A stretch of 64,000 nucleotides of DNA from Candidatus Harrisonbacteria bacterium (GTDB lineage Bacteria; Patescibacteriota; Minisyncoccia; UBA6257; 1-14-0-10-44-23): positions 185,766 to 249,765 of the forward strand of contig JAHFLF010000001.1 in NCBI GenBank assembly GCA_023255625.1, given 5' to 3'. How positions within the stretch are numbered: position 1 is the stretch's first letter; each line of letters starts with the position of its first letter. The translations under genes and the position numbers were made by a program. Below, piece by piece: positions 223 to 58,390 of this stretch. The notes under the pieces were generated by a model that worked only from the letters and a program-made list of their open reading frames with translations, ran no database searches and was not told where the DNA came from.

Positions 223-485
223 ATGGCTGTATTCTAGGCCTCCAGGTGAAGACGCGCAAGTTGTAGGTAATCTTTTTTGAAGGTATCATATACGCAACAA
301 CTTAATAGCAGTGTGACCTAACCTCTCCGAGCAATCGGGCAGCATGGTCTTAAGCCCTCAACAGTAAAAAGCTCCTAGTCAGAGCGCTGTTGAGGCCATA
401 TCGGGAAACTGGTATGGGTGCCGCAAGGCATCGCTGGCTGGGGGCTTTTTGTTCGTCAGCCAGCATAACGATTAAAAATATCATT

Positions 486-19324: not shown

Positions 19325-20611
19325 CTATTGTTTTATAGATGATAACACGGTTAAGACCCGATCAATCTCTGCATCCGTTGTTAGCCGCCCCAAACTAAAA
19401 CGAATACTATTTTTAGCCCGGGTGCGGTCAAAGCCCATCGCAAGTAAAACATGCGAGGGGTCAATGGACCGGGCGGAACAGGCCGAGCCGGAAGAAACGG
19501 CTATACCTGCCAGGTCGAGCGCTACAAGCAGCTGCTCCCCTGACCGCCGAGGAATAAAAATATTAAGATTATTTGGAAGTCGACCTTGTGCGCCTCCGTT
19601 AAGTACTACACCGGGGAAAATAATTTTATTTCCTTTAAAAAGCTTGTCGCGTAATTTGGCGATTCTTTGAAATTCTTTTGAGCGCAGTGCCGATGCAATT
19701 TCCACGGCCTTAGCAAATCCGACAATCGCCGAGACATTCTCTGTACCGCTGCGAAGGCCGAATTCCTGACCACCGCCAGTCAGGATAGTGAGTAGTGAGT
19801 AGTGAGTAGTGAGTAGCTTTGAGGCAGGGACGCGACGGGCATACAAACATCCAATACCTTTTGGGCCATAAATTTTATGCGCAGAAAGCGTCATCAAATC
19901 AACTCCGAGCGCATCAACATTGCAGTCTAAATACTGAAAGGCCTGAACCGCATCAACATGAAGGAGAGGATAGTTACTTGGTTGCTTAGTTAGTTGGTTG
20001 GTTGGTTGAGAGGCGCGAAAATCGTTAACGATTTTCGCGATTTCTGCGATTGGCTGGACCGTCCCAACTTCATTGTTAGCGTACATAACTGAAACTAGTA
20101 CAGTCCGCTCGTTCAGCGCAGCTTTGAGTTTTTTTAGATCAACAATGCCTTCCCTTGAAACTGGAATAAGCACTACATCCACTCCGTCTTTTTCTAAATC
20201 ACGCGCCGTCTCTAGCACCGACTCATGTTCAATCGCGGAAATAATTAGGCGAGGTATGAATTTTCCATTCTTCATTCTTAATTGGTCATTCATCATTTGC
20301 TTTACGCTCCCGCGTAAAGCAAGATTATTCGCCTCTGTCGCACTCCCCGTAAAAATAATCTCGCTGTAGTGCGCACCGATAGCGCCGGCAATCGTCTGCC
20401 TTGGCTTAAATACCGCCGCACTCGCTGCTTGCCCAAATGAATGCAAAGACCCCGGATTTCCAAAGCTGGTTGCTTGGTTAGTTGGTTGCTTGGTTAGTTG
20501 GTTGGGAAACGATGCGCCAAACCACGGCAGCATGGCTTCAAGCACGCGCGGGTCAAGCGGAGTGGTGGACGCGTAATCAAGATAAATTCTTTTTTGCTTC
20601 ATAAAGCTCAT
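19325..20611 (-). CDS. Cysteine desulfurase (IscS/NifS family, PLP-dependent) carrying three in-frame repeat-derived insertions
   Basis: SAHKIYGPKGIG (PLP Lys), HVDAVQA, GGGQEFGLRSGT, SSGSACS. Extra segments PNQLTKQPTNQATS, SQPTNQLTKQPSNYP and LLTTHYSLLTIL are encoded by GGTTAGTTGG / AGTGAGT micro-repeats. Confidence 0.85.
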   Translation of the reverse strand: MSFMKQKRIYLDYASTTPLDPRVLEAMLPWFGASFPNQLTKQPTNQATSFGNPGSLHSFGQAASAAVFKPRQTIAGAIGAHYSEIIFTGSATEANNLALRGSVKQMMNDQLRMKNGKFIPRLIISAIEHESVLETARDLEKDGVDVVLIPVSREGIVDLKKLKAALNERTVLVSVMYANNEVGTVQPIAEIAKIVNDFRASQPTNQLTKQPSNYPLLHVDAVQAFQYLDCNVDALGVDLMTLSAHKIYGPKGIGCLYARRVPASKLLTTHYSLLTILTGGGQEFGLRSGTENVSAIVGFAKAVEIASALRSKEFQRIAKLRDKLFKGNKIIFPGVVLNGGAQGRLPNNLNIFIPRRSGEQLLVALDLAGIAVSSGSACSARSIDPSHVLLAMGFDRTRAKNSIRFSLGRLTTDAEIDRVLTVLSSIKQ

Positions 20612-28630: not shown

Positions 28631-28793
28631 AAAACACTCAAAGTTGTATAGTAGAAATGTAGGTCCCCTGCACGGAAAAATACCGAGGATCCGTAAAGGG
28701 CATGGCAACTCAAACCGGTGAAAGGAGTCGACCGACCAAAGAGCCGTGAGTTCGTTCTGACCTTGTTCTGACCAGTCCACACACGGAGGTTCG

Positions 28794-29018
28794 ATGCCCA
28801 TCGACGACGATCGTGATCGCGCTACCTGCCTAGTGCTCCTTGCCTATCGCGTGCTGCTTGCGTGTAGGAAAAAGGGGTACAGAGGTCCGCTACTCATGAC
28901 GGAATCGATGGACCGCGCCTGGTACTACCACCTGGGAGCGAAGCGGGCTCTCTTCGGAGAGTTCGAGTCAGCGGTGATGGAGGAAGTCTTCCAAGCACTG
29001 CATCTTCGCTACAAGTAG
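28794..29018 (+). CDS. Hypothetical small protein (74 aa) in GC-rich segment
   Basis: SD acggagg 6 nt upstream. Possible TTGGAT-18-TATAGT promoter at 28625-28653 gives a ~134-nt GC-rich leader. No similarity recognised. Confidence 0.3.
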   Translation: MPIDDDRDRATCLVLLAYRVLLACRKKGYRGPLLMTESMDRAWYYHLGAKRALFGEFESAVMEEVFQALHLRYK

Positions 29019-29164
29019 TATATCCGGGCGCACCGGCCCTGTGCGATATCGTGGAGCGCCACAACCGCCGATGGCAATCAGGCGCCAACCGCATAGCTGG
29101 TACTGGTCCACATTCCAGCCGGCGAACCCCTTGCGGGATTCGCCGGCACCAAACTCTACTTTAA

Positions 29165-29458
29165 ATGACAAAACGCAATTGGAATAACGATAAGACAAAT
29201 GAACTGGTCGGCGCGCTTCTCTCGTTAAAAAACGCGACCGACATGAAAAGTTTTTTACGCGATCTACTCACCGAGGATGAAATTATTGAATTTGGAAAAC
29301 GCTGGGAGGCGGCCCGCATGCTGGCTGCCGGCGTTCCCTACTCTGAAATAAGCAAAGCCGTTGGCCTCTCGTCCCGCACCGTGGCACGGGTGGCGCAGTG
29401 GTTTCACGCCGGCAAAGGCGGCTACAAACTCGCCATCGGCTCACTCAAAAGAAAATAA
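29165..29458 (+). CDS. TrpR-like YerC/YecD-family DNA-binding protein
   Basis: LLTEDEIIEFGKRWEAARMLAAGVPYSEISKAVGLSSRTVARVAQWFHAGKGGYK matches the YerC/YecD (TrpR-related) family pattern. Confidence 0.7.
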   Translation: MTKRNWNNDKTNELVGALLSLKNATDMKSFLRDLLTEDEIIEFGKRWEAARMLAAGVPYSEISKAVGLSSRTVARVAQWFHAGKGGYKLAIGSLKRK

Positions 29459-29496
29459 TCTCCTGCTTTACAATTCAGTTAAATTGTTAAGTACCC

Positions 29497-29528
29497 TTGA
29501 CGCTAGCACTTTACTATAGTAAAGTGCT
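29497..29528 (+). promoter_or_regulatory. Promoter-like -35 TTGACG overlapped by a perfect 24-bp palindrome AGCACTTTACTATAGTAAAGTGCT (CIRCE-like operator)
   Basis: Self-complementary 29505-29528. Half-sites TAGCACT / AGTGCTA with 9-nt spacer resemble CIRCE TTAGCACTC-N9-GAGTGCTAA. Confidence 0.5.
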
Positions 29529-29649
29529 ATTTATGACTGTTTTCACAACACAACTGCATCATCTGCATACCGATACCCTCCCCGGGAGTGGTTTGTGTTG
29601 ATTGAGTAGTTACGCTTACAAATAGCGCACACGAATAGAATCAACCCAA

Positions 29650-29700
29650 TCCCCTCCTGAAAACTCCGGCGCGTCGCCGGAAAACTGGGAGGGGTTTTGA
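29650..29700 (+). terminator. Leader-embedded intrinsic terminator/attenuator 25 nt upstream of the 29719 CDS
   Basis: cccctcc-tgaaaactccggcgcgtcgccggaaaactg-ggagggg-ttttgattt. An upstream ccctcccc (29572-29579) could form an alternative antiterminator. Confidence 0.5.
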
Positions 29701-29718
29701 TTTGGGAAAGGCAAGGCA

Positions 29719-30426
29719 ATGACTAAGGAACTTGTCCGAGTGAAGCTGCTCATCTTCGCCATCGCACCGAACGAAAAGGAGCGACGGACCGCTGCCGCAA
29801 GTCACACGGCCGAAGGGTATATGCGTGATGGCCCACAGATGCTCGGGATCTGTCTGGCAACCTTCGACCAACTGCCTCAGCTGCTCGCGGCCGTCCGGAA
29901 GACTGAAGAGTTCAGGCGCGATGCCGCGGGTCGGGCGGAAAGCGAGGCTGGCAGGATGTTCGCTGCTGCACTGCGCAACGAATCGGATCGGGAAGAGTTC
30001 TATGCTCACACCGTCGCCATCGGCATCATGATGAGTATCGCCGCAGCTTGTCAGGATGCGGGCATGCTCTTCACGCCGGAATTCCCGCGCTACAACCTCC
30101 GCGCTGCCTCAGATACCTACATTAAGACATCCATGAAGGTGGTCCCAGGGATCACGATCTGCATCGGCCCGCATTTCCAGAAGGAGCATCCCTACCTGGT
30201 CATGATCTACGACAAGCCGGGGCTGCTCTGGTGCGGCGAGGCGGCCAAGCTCCCGGAGATCAACTTCGAGACCAGCGCGTGCACACCCGACCCAACGGAT
30301 GTCGCGTGGACGGAGTCCTACTACACCATGTTCTGCTACCACACCGGCATGAAGACCAAATGGCGTAAGAAGGACTCGCCATTCACCAGTGTCGGTGGTC
30401 ACGGCGGATCCTACGGCGGGCACTAG
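29719..30426 (+). CDS. Hypothetical protein (235 aa), GC-rich island gene 1
   Basis: High-GC codon usage. Gly/His-rich C-terminus SVGGHGGSYGGH. No family recognised. Confidence 0.45.
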   Translation: MTKELVRVKLLIFAIAPNEKERRTAAASHTAEGYMRDGPQMLGICLATFDQLPQLLAAVRKTEEFRRDAAGRAESEAGRMFAAALRNESDREEFYAHTVAIGIMMSIAAACQDAGMLFTPEFPRYNLRAASDTYIKTSMKVVPGITICIGPHFQKEHPYLVMIYDKPGLLWCGEAAKLPEINFETSACTPDPTDVAWTESYYTMFCYHTGMKTKWRKKDSPFTSVGGHGGSYGGH

Positions 30427-30462: not shown

Positions 30463-31710
30463 ATGAACAAGGCGCTTCTCGTCGTCTACCCGGGCGGGCT
30501 CGCTGGCGGCGGTACGCTCCAGCAGATCCGCGCCAGCTACACCGACCTCGCCGCTCTGGCGGCGAGTCTCGGCATGAGGTTCGAGACGGCCTGGGATCCG
30601 CGCTCGAATCTGCCTGCGCCTACATTTCCGCTGGTCCTGGGCAGTGCCGGCTACTACGCCCGGCATCAGGAGCTCAAGCAGTGGGCAGGCGAGGTGCGCA
30701 CACGGCTGCACGAACAAGGCGTGAGCGAGCTGACGGTGTATGGCTTCGGGTACACCAGCTTCATCCCCTACGCCTTCGAAGGATACGACGATGTTCGGGT
30801 GATCTGGGGAGACTGCTCCCCGCCTGACACCGATGTTCTCGGCGGCGATCTCTCGTCGCGCTTCTACGGCAAGGCCTACGAACGGACGCGCGGCCTCTGC
30901 TACGGCTGGCATGAGGGAGGGCCACTCACGCGCCGGCCACTGATGTATTCGTACTCCATGACCGCGCAACCGTTTGGCAAGGAGTATGTCGGGTCTCTGC
31001 TGGCGCAGCGTCTCACAACTCCCGAACCGCTCGGTGGCGAGGGGGCGATCAGGATTGTGCTCTCGGCTTCAGACATCTGGTCGCCGAATGCAATCGGTGT
31101 CTGGATGACCGAGCAGCAGCACCGTGACACCGTTCTCCGGACGGCGCTTCTCATGGACGCCATTCGAACCTGCGCGCAGCAACTCGGGCGCAAGGTTGTC
31201 CTCTACGCGCACCCGACTCTTCGCAAGGTCAATGTTCCGACGCGCAGCTTCTATCCCAACCAGAGCGGACTGGAGGGATTTGCGGAGGCCGGAGGCATCA
31301 CCCTGGTGGACACGCACACGAGCGCGTGGACACCGGAGCAGTATCGGGCGCTCTTGCGAAGCGCCAACCTGGTCGTAACTCGCGCGTCGCATTCGGTAAC
31401 CTCTGCCGAATGTGCAGCGATGGGAATCCCCCAGGCACTCTGCCCCATGCCGTCAATGGGGTACATGAACGAAGGAGAGTTCACCTCTGACATTCGGGAC
31501 CGCGGGCTGGCCATGGTCCTCGATCCTCTGTCGCGGGGGCTGTGGCGACAGATCGCCACGGCGCTGACCGACGACAATCTGCGGCGCGACACCACCCGCC
31601 GCGCCTGCGAAGAGTTCGACAGGATCAATGACCGCCAGAACTTCTTCAAGAATCTAGCAACCCTCATCGAAGTTTCCTGGAGAAATTCAGATGACTACGA
31701 AGTAGCATAG
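30463..31710 (+). CDS. GT-B fold glycosyltransferase-like protein (GT1/GT28-like), GC-rich island gene 2
   Basis: N-terminal ALLVVYPGGLAGGGTLQQI (Gly-rich loop after beta1). C-terminal SANLVVTRASHSVTSAECAAMGIPQALCPMP resembles the GT1/MurG donor-binding motif. SD gaaggag upstream. Confidence 0.5.
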   Translation: MNKALLVVYPGGLAGGGTLQQIRASYTDLAALAASLGMRFETAWDPRSNLPAPTFPLVLGSAGYYARHQELKQWAGEVRTRLHEQGVSELTVYGFGYTSFIPYAFEGYDDVRVIWGDCSPPDTDVLGGDLSSRFYGKAYERTRGLCYGWHEGGPLTRRPLMYSYSMTAQPFGKEYVGSLLAQRLTTPEPLGGEGAIRIVLSASDIWSPNAIGVWMTEQQHRDTVLRTALLMDAIRTCAQQLGRKVVLYAHPTLRKVNVPTRSFYPNQSGLEGFAEAGGITLVDTHTSAWTPEQYRALLRSANLVVTRASHSVTSAECAAMGIPQALCPMPSMGYMNEGEFTSDIRDRGLAMVLDPLSRGLWRQIATALTDDNLRRDTTRRACEEFDRINDRQNFFKNLATLIEVSWRNSDDYEVA

Positions 31711-31718
31711 CAACCTGA

Positions 31719-31747
31719 CCCGGGCGGCGCTTGCAAGCGCCGCCCGG
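31719..31747 (+). terminator. GC hairpin between GT and GH84 genes (ccgggcggcgc-ttgcaa-gcgccgcccgg)
   Basis: 11-bp perfect GC stem with no clear U-run. May be a processing site or weak terminator. Confidence 0.35.
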
Positions 31748-31769
31748 ACAGACACCATACTTATATACT

Positions 31770-33314
31770 ATGCAGAAAAAATTATTCGGAATCGTTGAAG
31801 GATTCTTTTCAAGCCCGCTGCCGCTCTGGTCAAATTCAGAGCGTATTTCGATTATTCAACTTCTCGCAGAACAACCTTCTTTGATTAACGCATATCTTTA
31901 TTGCCCTAAAAATGATGTCTACGTAACTTCGGAATGGGCAACTCTATATACTCAAAAAAATATTAAGCCCATTATAAAAGCAGCACGATTATGCTCACGC
32001 ACTAATATCAATTTCTACTACGGCCTCAACCCAACTCTTACAGATTTCTCAGAAAGATCATCAAAAAATACGGCACGAAAGATTATTAAAAAATTAGAAC
32101 AACTTAGAACATTAGGCATAGACTCGTTTTGTCTCCTATTTGATGACATACCCTTTGCCTATAATATTCTTGCTGACGAAAAATCAATACGGGACGCACA
32201 AGCAGGCGCGGCACAAGCCATCATTGCCAATGTAGTGTACGATTGGCTCGGTAATAAACCGGGGGCACTACTGGTCTGCTCATCAGAATATTTTTTTACA
32301 CGCAAAACAAAATTTCTTGAGGCATTTGACAGCACTCTTAAAAAAGATATTCCTGTGCTCTGGACGGGGTCAGGCGTGTATGAAAAAAATCTCGGAAGCA
32401 GTACTGTTGTCGCGGCTCAAAATTCTATTGCCGCAGAGAGGCCCCTCATATGGTGGAACAATTATCCGGTTAATGATTGCGAACACATTCCTGGAACATT
32501 CCACTTCGGTGCTTTTAACGGCCCACCCATAAAAGCCTTCCAAAAACTAGATGGCATTTTTGTTAATCCCATGCGAGAAGCCATGCTGAATATAGGAGTG
32601 CTCGCGACATTCAAACAATACCTGGAAAATCCTAGACAATATAATCGCGATAGAGCACTTAGGGTGGTATGTACAGAAAAATTTGGTAAAGCGGGCAGGG
32701 CTCTCTACCGGCTTGGATCTTCATTCGCAGATAAAAATACGGTTGATGCTGAACCAAGAGAATATGCTAAAAAAATCCTCGCTGTAAAAACTAATGAGCA
32801 GCTACGGATTGTATATGCATCTATCAACGCGGACCAAAAACTTATTGAGGCATATAAAAAGAACGACGCTGACTCTGCGTGGGGATCATTTTGCTTGTAC
32901 ATAGCAATGCTTTTAAAGCCGCGCATCAAAGCAGCTATGCAAGTAGCTCAAACTAACAAGGCGGGCTTTGAGAAAATAACAGAGCCGTTACTTAGATTTC
33001 CTGTTGTAACCGAAAAACGCTACCTTACTAAAATCTATAAAACAATCATGGATAGGCAGAGGATGATCTCTGCCTGGCAAAACTTCGGGAATGTAGCATT
33101 ATTAAATGCCATTTCAAACCTCGGTATCCTCTATGGGAAATATAACGGGAAAAATCGTCTCTCTATCAGCAGTTCCGATGAAGCAATGTTGCGAAAAAAT
33201 ATCAAAATTACTATCAGGAAACAAAAGGAACTTCTAGTTAAGTATTGTTTAGTCGCCGATAAAATTAAAAAAATAAAAACACTAATAAGATGGTGGAATA
33301 TGAATGGTTATTGA
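31770..33314 (+). CDS. Glycoside hydrolase family 84 protein (O-GlcNAcase / beta-N-acetylglucosaminidase NagJ-like)
   Basis: LFGIVEGFFSSPLPLW, YLYCPKNDVY, FYYGLNPTLT, FCLLFDDIP (catalytic Asp-Asp), LLVCSSEYFF, RPLIWWNNYPVNDC, DGIFVNPMREA are the GH84 catalytic-domain motifs, in order. ATG at 31770 preferred over the TTG at 31731. Confidence 0.7.
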   Translation: MQKKLFGIVEGFFSSPLPLWSNSERISIIQLLAEQPSLINAYLYCPKNDVYVTSEWATLYTQKNIKPIIKAARLCSRTNINFYYGLNPTLTDFSERSSKNTARKIIKKLEQLRTLGIDSFCLLFDDIPFAYNILADEKSIRDAQAGAAQAIIANVVYDWLGNKPGALLVCSSEYFFTRKTKFLEAFDSTLKKDIPVLWTGSGVYEKNLGSSTVVAAQNSIAAERPLIWWNNYPVNDCEHIPGTFHFGAFNGPPIKAFQKLDGIFVNPMREAMLNIGVLATFKQYLENPRQYNRDRALRVVCTEKFGKAGRALYRLGSSFADKNTVDAEPREYAKKILAVKTNEQLRIVYASINADQKLIEAYKKNDADSAWGSFCLYIAMLLKPRIKAAMQVAQTNKAGFEKITEPLLRFPVVTEKRYLTKIYKTIMDRQRMISAWQNFGNVALLNAISNLGILYGKYNGKNRLSISSSDEAMLRKNIKITIRKQKELLVKYCLVADKIKKIKTLIRWWNMNGY

Positions 33315-33317
33315 AAT

Positions 33318-34061
33318 TTAATCTTTCTTCTCTCCCTCCCTATTTTTCGCAATCTTATTCAGCAACTTATCCAAATCCCCATCCAGCACCGTCTCAATTT
33401 CATGCACTTTTGCATTAAATCGGTGGTCGGTAATCCGGTCATCTGGAAAATTGTAGGTACGGATTTTTTCTGACCGGTCGCCGGTGCCTACTACATCACT
33501 GCGACTGCCCGAAAACTGGCTAAGCTCTTTTTCGCGCTGCATAGCAAACAACTTAGCGCGCAGTACCGACATCGCCGTCTCGCGATTAGCGTGCTGGCTA
33601 CGCTCGGCGCGGCTGCTTACCACAATGCCGGTTGGCTTGTGTGTTACGCGCACGGCCGTTTCAACTTTGTTCACATTCTGGCCGCCCGGCCCGCCGGCCC
33701 GGCTAAAAGTTACTAAAATATCACTGTCATTGATGACAACCTCTTTTGGCTCAACCTCCGGAAGTATGGCAACGGTTGCAGTTGAGGTGTGTACTCTCCC
33801 CTGTCTCTCGGTAGCCGGAACACGCTGCACGCGGTGCGTACCGCTTTCTAACTTAAGCGCATCATACGCGCCTGTTCCGGTAATCCGCGCGGCAAAAAAC
33901 TTATACCCGCCATTACCCATGTCGTTTGAATCAAGCAATTGAAAAGCCCAGCCCTTATTCTGACTGTAGCGCTGATACATGCGCGCTAAATTACCGGCAA
34001 ACAGCCCGGCCTCGTCGCCGCCGACACCTGCTCGAATTTCTAAAATAACTTTGTTGGTCAT
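33318..34061 (-). CDS. prfA: Peptide chain release factor 1 homolog lacking the N-terminal domain 1
   Basis: 247 aa. [40 protein letters not shown] (PxT = PAT, RF1-type), [26 protein letters not shown] (GGQ). Starts where RF1 domain 2 begins; upstream 174 bp is non-coding. Confidence 0.75.
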
Positions 34062-34194
34062 ACCCTTTTAAAGTGGAGGCACTGGGTTTGACCCTAGACG
34101 GCCCTCTCGCAGGCCGAGGAGGCCGAGAGGAGTCGCTGCGCGAGCCGCGCGCAGATAGACGGGGCCGGTCTGGGGCAAAACCAGTGCCGAAACA

Positions 34195-34215
34195 TTGTGC
34201 TATAATACAATAAAG
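34195..34215. promoter_or_regulatory. Overlapping divergent promoters (extended -10 TGcTATAAT for + strand receiver gene; TTGCCT-17-TATTAT on minus strand for prfA-like gene)
   Basis: cattgtgctataatacaataaagcatgctgttaggcaacaaacATG. Minus-strand reading gives ttgcctaacagcatgctttattgtattat. Confidence 0.4.
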
Positions 34216-34235
34216 CATGCTGTTAGGCAACAAAC

Positions 34236-34634
34236 ATGAAAAATTTACTGCCACTTATATTGGTCGCTGACGAGGAAAAAGAATTCCGCGATCTGATCGT
34301 CGATGTACTACACACCAAAGGATTTCAAACTGCAACCGCAAGCAACGGCGAAGATGCCGTCGCCGCGGCCCGCAAATATCATCCGGCGCTTATTCTAATG
34401 GATGTGGATATGCCGAAAAAAAACGGGATTGAGGCCACGCTAGAACTACAGCAGGATCCGCACACTAAGAATATCAAAATCATGTATCTTTCTAATCTCG
34501 GCGACGCTTCCTGGGCGGCGGCGACCGAAACAAATCGAAAATTGGCAAAACAAATAGGGGCCGTTGATTATTTTAAAAAAGGCGGCAATTTAGATACGCT
34601 GATTGATCGCATCAGATTCCACTTGGCCTCCTGA
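34236..34634 (+). CDS. Stand-alone response regulator receiver domain protein (CheY-like)
   Basis: LILVADEE...LILMDVDMPKKNG...KIMYLSNLG... Conserved acidic pocket and phospho-acceptor Asp (ILMDVD). Confidence 0.75.
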   Translation: MKNLLPLILVADEEKEFRDLIVDVLHTKGFQTATASNGEDAVAAARKYHPALILMDVDMPKKNGIEATLELQQDPHTKNIKIMYLSNLGDASWAAATETNRKLAKQIGAVDYFKKGGNLDTLIDRIRFHLAS

Positions 34635-57067: not shown

Positions 57068-58390
57068 ATGCAAACCAAACCAAAAAATAAGAAACCAGCC
57101 GGCGAAGCATCGACCACTTTTCAATCGGTCAAAGGCATGCACGATGTGCTGCCGGCGGAGTCCTGTGTTCAAGAAAAGATCTACCGTCTGGCCAGAGAAA
57201 TTCTTGAATTCTACAATTTTAACAGCATAGCCACCCCGCTGGTTGAATATCTTGGACTATATAATCGCACCACCGGCGAGGCCACCGATATTGTTGAAAA
57301 GCAAATGTTCACTCTAAAGACTAAGGGCGGCGAAACCCTGGCGCTACGCCCGGAATTCACGCCGGGGATTGGCCGTGCCTATATCCAGCACGGAATGAGC
57401 CACTACCCGCACCCGGTTAAACTTTTTACAATCGGGCCGCTTTTCCGCTATGAGCAACCCCAGGCCGGCCGTTTTCGCCAGTTTAACCAAATCGATGCTG
57501 AAATTTTCAGTACAGAAAATGATGCAATTTATGATGCACAGGGTATCTTGGCCTGCTACCGCATCTTGGATGAACTGAAAATAAAAAATCTGATCATTAA
57601 TATCAATACTATTGGTTGCATAACTTGCCGGCCAAATTACCGGAAAGCGCTCGTTAGTTACTATAAAAATAAAGAGAAGCAGCTTTGCACAGATTGCAAA
57701 CGCCGTTTGCCGGTAAATCCGCTGCGACTTTTGGATTGCAAGGAGCCGATTTGCCAACCCCTAAAAGAACAAGCCCCGAACACGCTCGACTATGTCTGCG
57801 CTACCTGTAAAAAACACTTTAAGGAAGTTTTAGAATATCTGGATAATTTAGCTCTCCCATATGCTCTCAATCCCTATCTGGTTCGGGGTCTAGATTATTA
57901 TTCCAAAACGGTTTTCGAAATAAATACTCAACCCGCAGAGGGAGAAGAAAAAATCGACTTTGCTCTTGGCGGCGGCGGCCGCTATGACTACCTTATTGAA
58001 GAACTCGGCGGCCGACCAACTTCGGCCTTTGGCTGGGCGCTTGGCGTTGAACGGATTATCGATGTCCTGCACACCCGGAATATCCTCCCCTCCTCCCGAC
58101 CGAAAGAAAAAGTATTCTTAATCCACATCGGCGACCTGGCTAAGAGAAAATCACTCTGCTTAATCGAAACCCTGCGCCACGCTCACATAAATGTAATTGA
58201 ATCTCTTGGTAAGGAATCGTTGGCAGCACAGTTGCGCGCGGCCGACAAAGCAGATGCGCCACTCGCCCTGATTTTTGGTCAAAAGGAGGCCTATGAAGAA
58301 TCGATAATTATTCGCGACATGAAAACTGGTGCGCAGGAGATGGTGCCACTGACTAAGCTGCCGGAAATGATTAAGAGGAAACTCAACTAG
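57068..58390 (+). CDS. hisS: Histidine--tRNA ligase
   Basis: Class II aaRS motifs: GMHDVLP, FTIGPLFRYEQPQAGRFRQFNQIDAEIF (motif 2), GGGRYDYL (motif 3). C-terminal anticodon-binding domain. Confidence 0.9.
   Translation: MQTKPKNKKPAGEASTTFQSVKGMHDVLPAESCVQEKIYRLAREILEFYNFNSIATPLVEYLGLYNRTTGEATDIVEKQMFTLKTKGGETLALRPEFTPGIGRAYIQHGMSHYPHPVKLFTIGPLFRYEQPQAGRFRQFNQIDAEIFSTENDAIYDAQGILACYRILDELKIKNLIININTIGCITCRPNYRKALVSYYKNKEKQLCTDCKRRLPVNPLRLLDCKEPICQPLKEQAPNTLDYVCATCKKHFKEVLEYLDNLALPYALNPYLVRGLDYYSKTVFEINTQPAEGEEKIDFALGGGGRYDYLIEELGGRPTSAFGWALGVERIIDVLHTRNILPSSRPKEKVFLIHIGDLAKRKSLCLIETLRHAHINVIESLGKESLAAQLRAADKADAPLALIFGQKEAYEESIIIRDMKTGAQEMVPLTKLPEMIKRKLN

What the first reader, a model, noticed from the sequence alone, without database searches (positions are those of the whole stretch)
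29497..29718. CIRCE-like perfect 24-bp palindrome over a promoter, followed by a ~185-nt leader ending in an intrinsic terminator just upstream of the first GC-island gene
Seen in sequence:
- AGCACTTTACTATAGTAAAGTGCT (29505-29528) is perfectly self-complementary and overlaps a TTGACG -35.
- Its half-sites TAGCACT/AGTGCTA with a 9-nt spacer resemble the HrcA operator CIRCE.
- The downstream leader contains cccctcc...ggagggg + UUUU (29650-29697), 25 nt before the ATG, and an upstream ccctcccc that could compete (terminator/antiterminator).

Inference:
- The gene is under repressor control plus transcription attenuation, or a riboswitch.
- The palindrome lies directly downstream of yerC, a TrpR-like DNA-binding protein, which makes it a candidate YerC operator.
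Basis: partly seen in the sequence, partly recalled or inferred. Interest (0 to 1): 0.5.

Follow-up and report, generated by a model that had tools for sequence, protein, structure and literature searches.

The report
Histidine repressor operator plus histidine attenuator
The palindrome is not a heat-shock (CIRCE) element but a textbook binding site for the histidine-sensing repressor HisR (YerC) encoded next door, and it is followed by a histidine-codon leader peptide with a terminator/antiterminator switch, so two known histidine sensors in series control a pair of foreign-looking genes rather than histidine biosynthesis genes.

Summary
The sequence features are real. The palindrome is 26 bp and perfect (29504-29529), longer than any in 200 shuffles of the window. 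The CIRCE reading fails: the half-site spacing is one base too long, the CIRCE-like flanks are not conserved in relatives, and no chaperone gene follows.

Its core, CACTTTA-N6-TAAAGTG, matches 14/14 the published operator consensus of HisR. HisR is B. subtilis YerC, a TrpR-family repressor that uses histidine as corepressor (PMC9413887). The gene just upstream is a YerC/HisR family member.

The 18-bp core recurs in 36 reference genomes. In 12 of them, across many phyla, it lies within about 130 nt upstream of a yerC homologue, and in several of those hisG-hisD, hisS or a PRA-CH (hisI-type) gene follows.

The palindrome covers the predicted -10 box. Right after it comes a 22-codon ORF with three His codons (29533-29601). 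Then come an antiterminator (29584-29603 with 29639-29657, -22 kcal/mol) and a terminator (29651-29698, -27.7 kcal/mol). Five relatives keep this layout, and one of them has an HHH leader in front of a his operon.

This is the histidine counterpart of the E. coli trp operon's repressor-plus-attenuator control. Here it sits in front of a strict ORFan and a rare glycosyltransferase-like gene. Both parts are known kinds. The combination and the swapped cargo are the new aspects.

The parts
29165..29458 (+). hisR (yerC): TrpR-family, YerC/YecD-type repressor, 97 aa
   Evidence: Pfam Trp_repressor 5.3e-15. NCBIfam TIGR02531 yecD_yerC scores 54.7 bits against a cut-off of 42.2. The best PDB relatives are 3frw, 3g1c and 3kor. 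The recognition-helix residues Y59, S69, T72 and R75 are invariant with his-operon-linked homologues and with 3frw/3g1c.
29497..29502 (+). -35-like hexamer TTGACG
   Evidence: Promoter scan: TTGACG-17-TAAAGT, 9/12 matches.
29504..29529 (.). HisR operator: 26-bp perfect palindrome. The 20-bp HisR box CACTTTActatagTAAAGTG is at 29507-29526.
   Evidence: Searches show the palindrome. The box is a 0-mismatch match to the published consensus cacTTTAnnnnnnTAAAgtg and the only one in the window. The core is conserved after hisR in 11 related contigs. It also sits next to yerC homologues in 12 of 36 genome hits.
29520..29525 (+). -10-like hexamer TAAAGT, inside the right arm of the operator
   Evidence: The predicted transcription start is about 29531-29533, at the leader ATG (inference).
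29533..29601 (+). Leader ORF MTVFTTQLHHLHTDTLPGSGLC*, with His codons at 29557-29562 and 29566-29568
   Evidence: Homologous ORFs with 3-4 His codons occur in L002, L003, L006, L052 and L009 (HHH, before hisG). His enrichment is P=0.003 here and 7e-5 in L052.
29576..29583 (+). Region 1, CCCTCCCC. It lies inside the leader ORF and can pair with region 2 or with region 4.
29584..29603 (+). Region 2: 5' arm of the antiterminator. It overlaps the last six codons and the stop codon of the leader ORF.
   Evidence: Inverted repeat I1, 19 nt, 84% complementary. The consensus helix is kept in 5 homologues, with 2 compensatory pairs.
29639..29657 (+). Region 3: 3' arm of the antiterminator and also 5' arm of the terminator
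   Evidence: Repeats I1 and I5 share these bases. In the nascent RNA, 6 of the 7 bases of the terminator arm are sequestered when a ribosome is placed on the His codons.
29651..29698 (+). Intrinsic terminator: outer stem CCCCTCC/GGAGGGG, inner hairpin CCGGCG-CGT-CGCCGG, then TTTT (29695-29698)
   Evidence: It folds at -27.7 kcal/mol. The same architecture, with different inner hairpins, is found in L006 and L052.
29719..30426 (+). First regulated gene: 235 aa, a strict ORFan, GC3 0.76
   Evidence: There is no homologue in 5.8 billion clusters or in 1.84 billion representatives. The AlphaFold2 model has pLDDT 41.5 and is unusable.
30463..31710 (+). Second regulated gene: 415 aa, a rare family with a weak MurG C-terminal (GT-B-like) similarity, GC3 0.76
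   Evidence: Homologues are paired with GH84 genes in L057/L058, and in L059 the homologue lies behind hisR-hisS.
31720..31747 (+). 28-bp perfect GC-rich hairpin that closes the GC-rich two-gene unit

Best explanation
The segment 29497-29718 is a two-layer histidine-responsive control region.

Layer 1. The 26-bp palindrome is the operator of HisR (YerC), the TrpR-family repressor encoded immediately upstream. It covers the spacer, the -10 box and the start point of the promoter TTGACG-17-TAAAGT. When histidine is plentiful, the HisR-histidine dimer should bind there and block RNA polymerase.

Layer 2. Transcripts that do start begin at or next to the AUG of a 22-codon leader ORF with three His codons.
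- If charged tRNA-His is abundant, the ribosome runs to the stop codon at 29599-29601. It then covers region 2 (29584-29603), so region 3 pairs with region 4 and the terminator (29651-29698) ends transcription 20 nt before the first gene.
- If the ribosome stalls on the His codons, region 2 is free. It pairs with region 3 before region 4 is made, and polymerase reads through.

The result is expression of the downstream 235-aa and 415-aa genes only under histidine limitation.

Shown here: the sequence match to the operator consensus; the linkage to hisR and to his genes across phyla; conservation of the leader ORF and of both alternative helices; and the energetics.

Inferred: actual HisR binding, histidine as the effector in this lineage, the transcription start, translation of the leader, and the in vivo outcome.
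For: - Operator match. The box at 29507-29526 matches cacTTTAnnnnnnTAAAgtg at 14/14 specified positions. It is the only match in 64 kb with fewer than 3 mismatches. The consensus is from PMC9413887, where binding of R. gnavus HisR to its operator needed L-histidine.
- Regulator next door. The adjacent gene passes TIGR02531. It shares its recognition-helix residues with his-operon-linked homologues and with 3frw/3g1c.
- Linkage across genomes. The 18-mer core was found in 36 genome loci.
  - In 12 of them a yerC homologue starts 10-130 nt away.
  - Behind those yerC genes lie hisG-hisD (L039, L042, L022), hisS (L035) or a PRA-CH gene (L012).
  - Hits without yerC sit before a tRNA-synt_His-domain protein of 309 aa (L032) and before family-3 amino-acid-binding proteins (L030, L033, L041).
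  - Diverged boxes precede yerC in metagenome loci L046-L050.
- Promoter overlap. TTGACG-17-TAAAGT in the window and TTGACA-17-TACTAT in L009 both place the -10 inside the box.
- Leader ORF. It is conserved in 6 versions and always carries 3-4 His codons. L052 has LHHHAH. L009 has SHHHM, followed by a terminator and then hisG-hisD. His enrichment is P=0.003 to 7e-5. In L006 an indel changes the reading frame but the stop codon stays at the same place.
- Alternative pairing. Repeats I1 and I5 share 29643-29657. The antiterminator folds at -22.0 kcal/mol and sequesters 6/7 bases of the terminator arm; the terminator folds at -27.7 kcal/mol. With the ribosome placed at the stop codon, only the terminator forms. 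The whole-leader z-score is -2.76.
- Conservation of the antiterminator helix. 95% of cells are paired in 5 sequences against 39-62% when the partners are slid, and there are 2 compensatory pairs.
Against: - The regulated genes are not histidine genes, whereas published HisR regulons are almost entirely his biosynthesis and transport genes.
- The leader ORF has no Shine-Dalgarno sequence, although the cargo genes have one. Translation must therefore be leaderless or start from a short AU-rich 5' end. In L002-type relatives the only promoter I can propose (TTGACA-18-TGcTACTTT) was not flagged by the scan.
- The window's leader has only three His codons, and they are not all consecutive. 2.4% of random small ORFs in the window also have 3 or more.
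- Covariation is weak: 5 sequences, and 40/500 shuffles reach the observed score.
- At equilibrium the terminator is more stable than the antiterminator, so the switch depends on co-transcriptional order. That was not modelled.
- The no-ribosome minimum-free-energy fold pairs region 1 with region 4 and region 2 with region 3. Its effect on termination is unknown.
- There are no binding, transcript or translation data for this organism.
Confidence: 0.72

Rival explanations
1. CIRCE/HrcA: the palindrome is a heat-shock operator bound by HrcA.
For: The half-sites cTAGCACTt / aAGTGCTAt share 7 of 9 bases with TTAGCACTC / GAGTGCTAA (the CIRCE consensus is from general knowledge).
Against: - The spacing is 10 nt between the 9-mers, not 9, and a pattern with CIRCE spacing misses the site even with 3 mismatches.
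- In close relatives the CIRCE-like flank TAGCAC becomes TGCTAC, while the inner ACTTTACTATAGTAAAGT stays invariant.
- The site travels with yerC and his genes across phyla.
- No chaperone gene follows. clpB and htrA elsewhere in the window carry no such site.
Confidence: 0.02
2. The operator is a HisR box, but the leader is not a peptide-dependent attenuator. It would be a riboswitch, a protein- or tRNA-sensing leader, or a stand-alone small RNA or small-protein gene ended by its own terminator.
For: - The leader ORF has no Shine-Dalgarno sequence.
- Promoter to terminator gives a discrete RNA of about 165 nt with a strong fold (z-score -2.76).
- The C-terminal PGSGLC is conserved in three versions.
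Against: - No Rfam family, including T-box and His_leader, matches at E up to 10.
- The conserved nucleotides coincide with the two alternative helices, and the ORF stop codon keeps its place despite a frame change in L006.
- His codons are kept in all six versions, and the L009 version fronts a his operon.
- The terminator ends 20 nt before a gene on the same strand.
Confidence: 0.12
3. Relic or retargeted regulator. The cassette is a leftover of a lost his operon and no longer reports histidine, or this YerC paralogue senses another ligand, as proposed for the HisR2 paralogues linked to tyrosine/tyramine genes. The cargo would then be constitutive or respond to something else.
For: - The cargo is unrelated to histidine.
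- PMC9413887 describes HisR paralogues with non-histidine regulons.
- hisS in the window has no box.
Against: - The palindrome is perfect over 26 bp, and the leader ORF, the antiterminator and the terminator are intact in lineages with five different cargoes. This argues for ongoing selection.
- A 79%-identical YerC in L009 sits before an identical 26-bp box and a his operon.
- The His codons in the leader report histidine independently of HisR's ligand.
Confidence: 0.12
4. The palindrome acts as RNA or DNA structure: a terminator hairpin for the ftsK-hisR transcript, or a recombination site that explains the variable cargo.
For: - It lies 45 nt after the hisR stop codon.
- The terminator scan flags the same palindrome on the minus strand in L009.
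- The region downstream of it is hypervariable between relatives.
Against: - The stem is AT-rich, has no loop and has no proper U-run on the + strand.
- In other phyla the same sequence lies upstream of yerC, not downstream.
- The leader downstream of it is conserved as well, so the cargo breakpoints lie after the terminator, not at the palindrome.
- There is no GC-skew switch here.
Confidence: 0.03

Closest known systems
HisR (YerC) regulon and its operator in Firmicutes, Actinobacteria and Synergistetes (Ashniev et al. 2022, PMC9413887)
   Same: - The same regulator family (TIGR02531, TrpR fold).
- The same 20-bp palindromic box, cacTTTA-N6-TAAAgtg, matched exactly.
- The box lies in a promoter, and hisR is chromosomally linked to its target.
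- Relatives of the window carry the box before his genes, hisS or amino-acid transporter genes.
   Different: - The window's lineage looks like Patescibacteria (not established). The box also turns up in Bacteroidota, Ignavibacteriota and several candidate phyla that the paper does not list.
- The box lies downstream of hisR rather than in front of it.
- It controls an ORFan and a glycosyltransferase-like gene, not his genes.
- It is combined with a leader-peptide attenuator, which that paper looked for only in genomes without HisR or a T-box.
E. coli trp operon control: TrpR repression plus trpL attenuation (general knowledge)
   Same: A TrpR-family repressor with the amino acid as corepressor binds an operator that overlaps the promoter. 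A leader peptide with codons for that amino acid and a four-region terminator/antiterminator follow.
   Different: - The amino acid is histidine.
- The repressor gene is adjacent.
- The leader mRNA appears to be leaderless.
- The genes controlled are not the biosynthetic pathway.
His operon leader of Proteobacteria (Rfam RF00514) and the candidate His attenuators of the B. cereus group, Peptostreptococcaceae and Erysipelotrichales (PMC9413887)
   Same: A short ORF with His codons lies directly upstream of mutually exclusive antiterminator and terminator hairpins.
   Different: - There is no sequence or structure match to RF00514.
- There are fewer His codons (3-4), and they are partly dispersed.
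- It co-occurs with a HisR box.
CIRCE / HrcA operator
   Same: It is an inverted repeat containing TAGCACT / AGTGCTA and lies over a promoter.
   Different: The spacing is one base longer, the flanks are not conserved in relatives, there are no chaperone genes, and the site is linked to yerC and his genes instead.

Membership tests
HisR (YerC) operator | 20-bp palindrome matching cacTTTAnnnnnnTAAAgtg | tested here: met
   CACTTTActatagTAAAGTG at 29507-29526 has 0 mismatches and is the only such site in the window. The consensus is from PMC9413887.
HisR (YerC) operator | A HisR/YerC orthologue is encoded in the genome | tested here: met
   The adjacent gene at 29165-29458 scores 54.7 bits on TIGR02531 against a cut-off of 42.2. 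Its PDB relatives are 3frw and 3g1c. HTH residues are invariant.
HisR (YerC) operator | The site lies in the promoter region of the regulated gene | tested here: met
   It overlaps the spacer and the -10 of TTGACG-17-TAAAGT. The same holds in L009. The promoter is only predicted.
HisR (YerC) operator | The regulated genes belong to histidine biosynthesis, transport or charging | tested here: not met
   In the window the targets are a 235-aa ORFan and a 415-aa GT-B-like protein. The feature is met in relatives: L009 (hisG-hisD), L039/L042/L022 (hisG-hisD) and L035 (hisS).
HisR (YerC) operator | Histidine-dependent binding of the protein to the site | not testable with these tools
   This needs EMSA or footprinting. 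So far it has been shown only for R. gnavus HisR (PMC9413887).
Ribosome-mediated amino-acid attenuator (His type) | Short leader ORF enriched in codons of the sensed amino acid | tested here: met
   There are 3 His codons in 22 (P=0.003). Homologues have 3-4, including HHH runs in L052 and L009.
Ribosome-mediated amino-acid attenuator (His type) | Mutually exclusive antiterminator and terminator that share one arm, with a terminator followed by a U-run | tested here: met
   Repeats I1 and I5 share 29643-29657. The energies are -22.0 and -27.7 kcal/mol, with TTTT at 29695-29698. The helix is conserved in 5 homologues.
Ribosome-mediated amino-acid attenuator (His type) | Geometry: a ribosome at the stop codon masks the antiterminator arm, and a ribosome at the regulatory codons leaves it free | tested here: met
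   Masked folding. The footprint of 12 nt beyond the A-site is an assumption.
Ribosome-mediated amino-acid attenuator (His type) | The leader ORF is translated (a start signal is present) | tested here: inconclusive
   There is no Shine-Dalgarno sequence. The predicted start point puts the AUG at the 5' end of the transcript, which would make it leaderless (plus inference). There are no expression data.
Rfam His_leader RF00514 | Match to the covariance model | tested here: not met
   There is no hit at E up to 10 in the window at 29400-29800 or in L009 at 1500-1790.
CIRCE / HrcA operator | TTAGCACTC-N9-GAGTGCTAA | tested here: not met
   Each half matches 7/9 but the spacer is 10 nt. A pattern with CIRCE spacing and up to 3 mismatches does not hit the site.
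CIRCE / HrcA operator | Located before groES/groEL, dnaK or hrcA operons | tested here: not met
   The downstream genes are an ORFan and a GT-like protein. In relatives they are his genes, small Cys-rich proteins or a SLOG protein.
CIRCE / HrcA operator | hrcA is present in the genome | not tested
   Only 64 kb is available. None of the 45 window ORFs scanned against Pfam returned an hrcA-like match.
Riboswitch / T-box leader | Match to a described ligand- or tRNA-binding RNA family | tested here: not met
   Only chance-level sRNA hits were found.

The most novel reading that the evidence does not exclude
In this Patescibacteria-like lineage the hisR-operator-leader cassette has outlived the his operon it once controlled, which a relative (L009) still has. 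It now serves as a fixed, histidine-starvation-inducible expression slot between hisR and prfB. Unrelated and partly foreign genes are exchanged into this slot:
- an ORFan plus a glycosyltransferase-like gene (window);
- Cys-rich zinc-ribbon-like proteins (L002, L003, L006);
- a protein with a CxxxCxxC motif (L052);
- a SLOG protein (L005, L055).

For a host-dependent bacterium that must import histidine, this would make histidine supply a general signal of 'host contact or nutrient state' that drives accessory functions.
Probability: 0.3. Interest if true: 0.6.

Novelty: new variant of a known kind. Interest (0 to 1): 0.42.

Why it matters
- It replaces a wrong label (heat-shock CIRCE) with a specific and testable one: a HisR operator plus a His attenuator.
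- It extends the HisR box, unchanged in sequence, to Patescibacteria-like, Bacteroidota and Ignavibacteriota genomes.
- It gives a histidine counterpart of the classical trp repressor-plus-attenuator design.
- Most interestingly, both amino-acid sensors stand in front of non-metabolic, lineage-specific genes in a hypervariable slot. If that holds, it shows how reduced-genome bacteria can recycle a biosynthetic control region as a nutrient-state switch.
- It also gives a handle for inducing genes of unknown function.

Tried and rejected
- Rfam at gathering and at relaxed thresholds found nothing relevant for the leader.
- A pattern with CIRCE spacing gave only a chance-level hit elsewhere.
- The first literature search for 'YerC' without whole-word matching returned noise.
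- The metagenome scan with the YerC protein gave only 6 distant loci and no further leaders.
- The 235-aa protein had no homologue in either protein search. AlphaFold2 without an alignment gave pLDDT 41.5, so no fold search was run.
- MAFFT over the whole leader misaligned L002/L003, which lack the inner terminator hairpin. I therefore aligned only the antiterminator segment and compared the terminators by individual folds.
- A dif or recombination-site reading was dropped. There is no GC-skew switch, and the variable cargo begins after the conserved terminator.
- The organism could not be named. The cluster look-up gave no names, and the window's genome was not among the genome-collection hits.
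- The L002-type promoter (TTGACA-18-TGcTACTTT) is my reading by eye. The scan did not flag it.

Full report
**What is in the sequence**

- The perfect palindrome is TAGCACTTTACTA|TAGTAAAGTGCTA at 29504-29529, 26 bp.
- In 200 shuffles of the window no perfect palindrome had arms longer than 11 nt. This one has 13-nt arms.
- TTGACG (29497-29502) lies 2 nt upstream. With TAAAGT (29520-25) it forms a promoter-like site with a 17-nt spacer. The palindrome therefore covers the spacer, the -10 and the expected start point, not the -35.
- The hairpin CCCCTCC...GGAGGGG with an inner CCGGCG/CGCCGG hairpin and TTTT lies at 29651-29698. It ends 20 nt before the ATG at 29719.

**Not CIRCE**

- The 7-mers TAGCACT and AGTGCTA are 12 nt apart, against 11 nt in CIRCE. 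A pattern with CIRCE spacing does not hit the site even with 3 mismatches.
- In close relatives the CIRCE-like flank changes from TAGCAC to TGCTAC, while the inner ACTTTACTATAGTAAAGT is invariant.
- No chaperone gene follows the site.

**What the palindrome is**

- The gene just upstream (29165-29458) is a YerC/YecD-type TrpR-family protein. Pfam gives 5.3e-15. TIGR02531 gives 54.7 bits against a cut-off of 42.2. The nearest solved structures are 3frw and 3g1c.
- Ashniev et al. 2022 (PMC9413887) identify B. subtilis yerC as hisR, a repressor of histidine biosynthesis and transport genes that uses histidine as corepressor.
  - Their operator consensus for Firmicutes, Actinobacteria and Synergistetes is cacTTTAnnnnnnTAAAgtg.
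  - They report that about half of hisR genes carry such a site in front of themselves.
  - They report that R. gnavus HisR needs L-histidine to bind its site in vitro.
- The window site CACTTTActatagTAAAGTG (29507-29526) matches all 14 specified positions. The next-best sites in 64 kb have 3 mismatches, which is chance level.

**Independent support from other genomes**

An exact scan of one genome per species for ACTTTACTATAGTAAAGT gave 36 loci.

- In 12 of them a yerC homologue (36-62% identity) starts 10-130 nt from the palindrome. These 12 are labelled Absconditicoccaceae, Bdellovibrionales, Patescibacteria, Moraniibacteriota, Kerfeldbacteria, Saccharibacteria, Ignavibacteriota, Bacteroidota and a Gammaproteobacteria MAG.
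- Behind those yerC genes come hisG-hisD (L039, L042, L022), histidyl-tRNA synthetase (L035) or a PRA-CH gene (L012).
- Several hits without yerC precede a tRNA-synt_His-domain protein of 309 aa (L032) or family-3 amino-acid-binding proteins (L030, L033, L041).
- Diverged boxes of the same form precede yerC in metagenome loci L046-L050.
- Recognition-helix residues (Y59, S69, T72, R75, window numbering) are invariant between the window protein, the his-linked homologues and 3frw/3g1c.

**The local clade**

Contigs whose YerC is 73-83% identical keep the frame ftsK-hisR ... prfB(-)-response regulators. They always keep the palindrome just after hisR, but what follows differs:

| Locus | What follows the palindrome |
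|---|---|
| L002, L003, L006 | leader, then small Cys-rich ORFs |
| L052 | leader, then a 99-aa protein and a 382-aa protein with a CxxxCxxC motif |
| L005, L055 | a SLOG/LDcluster4 gene directly behind the box, with no leader |
| L009 | leader, then hisG-hisD-... with an identical 26-bp palindrome |
| window | leader, then a 235-aa strict ORFan and a 415-aa rare protein with weak MurG-C similarity |

- Both window cargo genes have GC3 0.76, against about 0.55-0.58 in the flanking genes.
- The two-gene unit is closed by a 28-bp perfect GC hairpin at 31720-31747.
- An independent assembly (L001) has the same arrangement.

**The leader**

Nine nucleotides after the box core an ATG (29533) opens a 22-codon ORF, MTVFTTQLHHLHTDTLPGSGLC*.

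| Locus | Leader peptide |
|---|---|
| L002 | MNQFCLQLHRSAHIHPFPGSGLC |
| L003 | MNTSRQQLHMRAHIHPFPGSGLC |
| L006 | MNQCVQQLHRRISHIHPSLGVVYI |
| L052 | MNQFCLQLHHHAHIRPS |
| L009 | MKNTRTITVLISITSHHHMPGGFLVC (before hisG) |

(Sequences.)

- Histidine makes up 1.36% of residues in 15 long ORFs of the window. Three or more His in 22 codons has P=0.003, and four in 17 has P=7e-5. Among random small ORFs in the window, 2.4% have three or more.
- In L006 an indel shifts the frame, yet the stop codon keeps its position relative to the RNA helices.
- There is no Shine-Dalgarno sequence. With -10 at 29520-25 the expected start is about 29531-33, which would make the mRNA leaderless (inference).

**The switch**

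- Region 2 (29584-29603) overlaps the last six codons and the stop codon of the leader. It pairs with region 3 (29639-29657) over 19 nt at 84% complementarity.
- Region 3 also pairs with region 4 (29688-29702) to make the terminator.
- Before region 4 is transcribed, and with a ribosome placed on the first or last His codon, the nascent RNA folds into the 2:3 helix. That helix has -22.0 kcal/mol and holds 6 of the 7 bases of the terminator arm. The terminator hairpin has -27.7 kcal/mol.
- With the ribosome at the stop codon, only the terminator can form.
- In L002, L003 and L006 a 1:2 hairpin also forms unless the ribosome covers region 1. That is the classical four-region layout.
- RNAalifold recovers the 2:3 helix in all five alignable leaders. 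It has 13 pairs, 95% of cells paired against 39-62% when the partners are slid, and two compensatory pairs. This is consistent but not decisive with five sequences.
- The inner hairpin of the terminator differs completely in sequence between the window, L006 and L052 but is kept as a hairpin.
- L009 has its own version: GGGCGGG/CCCGCCC as the antiterminator and CCGCC-N6-GGCGG plus T7 as the terminator.
- No Rfam family, including His_leader and T-box, matches.

**Interpretation**

- This is the histidine analogue of the E. coli trp operon's dual control. A TrpR-family repressor sits on the promoter, and a leader-peptide attenuator follows (the comparison rests on general knowledge).
- Each part is a known kind.
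- What I did not find described in the one HisR paper I read is:
  - the tandem use of a HisR box and a His attenuator; that study searched for attenuators only where HisR and T-boxes were absent;
  - the presence of an unchanged box in these other phyla;
  - its use in front of non-histidine genes.
- A literature search combining HisR with candidate-phyla terms found nothing.
- The organism is not established. Type IV pilus genes, many proteins without Pfam matches, and weak synteny with a Saccharibacteria locus suggest Patescibacteria.

**Limits**

- There are no binding, transcript or translation data.
- The promoter and start point are predicted only.
- The ribosome footprint in the folding model is assumed.
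- Only six leader versions are available.
- Whether this genome still has his genes is unknown.

Noticed in passing
window 315-432 (+): There is a LOOT RNA (Rfam RF03000) at 79.4 bits against a gathering score of 46.4, the only Rfam hit in the window. It lies just upstream of, or overlaps, a 271-aa ORF with no Pfam match (390-1205), which is followed by a PycTM (Pycsar effector) domain ORF at 1248-1736.
   Followed up: no
window 31720-31747: A 28-bp perfect GC-rich palindrome, CCGGGCGGCGCTTGCAAGCGCCGCCCGG, starts 9 nt after the stop codon of the 415-aa gene. It sits exactly at the junction between the GC-rich pair (GC 0.60-0.63) and the AT-rich GH84 gene (GC 0.40). GH84 probably starts at the ATG at 31772 rather than at the listed TTG at 31731.
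   Followed up: partly
window 20014-20039: A third long perfect palindrome (26 bp), CGCGAAAATCGTTAACGATTTTCGCG, lies inside the class-V aminotransferase ORF (19325-20611, minus strand). It is preceded by a (GGTT)n run at about 19994-20010. It is unexplained.
   Followed up: no
window 28631-29164: A 534-nt GC-rich insert lies between ftsK and hisR. It holds a 74-aa ORF with no Pfam or NCBIfam match (28794-29018) and a hairpin at 29118-29147. In relatives the ftsK stop and the hisR start are only 11 nt apart.
   Followed up: partly
window 33318-34254 (-): prfB is split into a 247-aa ORF (PCRF plus RF-1 domains) and an upstream 87-aa ORF. This is the usual layout of the programmed +1 frameshift in release factor 2. 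The same 247-aa form is called in all relatives.
   Followed up: no
window 30463-33314; L057 1226-4753; L059 3-4066: The rare 415-aa family is paired with a GH84 N-acetylglucosaminidase in other genomes. In L059 the order is hisR-hisS-(408-aa homologue)-GH84. The 415-family gene is GC-richer than its neighbours in three genomes (0.63, 0.61 and 0.54 against about 0.44-0.50), so the 'GC island' may be partly a property of the family.
   Followed up: partly
L005 5354-5914; L055 747-1304; L014 759-1310: A SLOG/LDcluster4 (LOG-like) gene repeatedly sits directly behind the HisR box (L005, L055, with no attenuator) or directly behind hisR (L014, Patescibacteria). This suggests it is a recurrent HisR target in these lineages.
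   Followed up: no
L052 523-630 (also L053, L054): A hairpin-forming insert of about 100 nt lies between the hisR stop codon and the promoter. It is flanked by duplicated CCCTTGAC / GGGTTGAC, so the -35 appears twice.
   Followed up: no
L002 5516-5731; L003 5516-5728; L006 5537-5824; L052 1232-2380: The cargo behind the same leader in relatives is as follows. L002, L003 and L006 carry small Cys-rich proteins of 70-95 aa that share a C-terminal CPRCG...CxCSGHxGS motif; the L002 and L003 genes were not called by the source annotation. L052 carries a 382-aa protein with a CKAHCEHC (CxxxCxxC) motif and no Pfam hit.
   Followed up: partly
window 57068-58390 (+): The window's own histidyl-tRNA synthetase gene has no HisR box nearby. 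In Saccharibacteria locus L035, by contrast, hisS follows box-hisR directly.
   Followed up: partly
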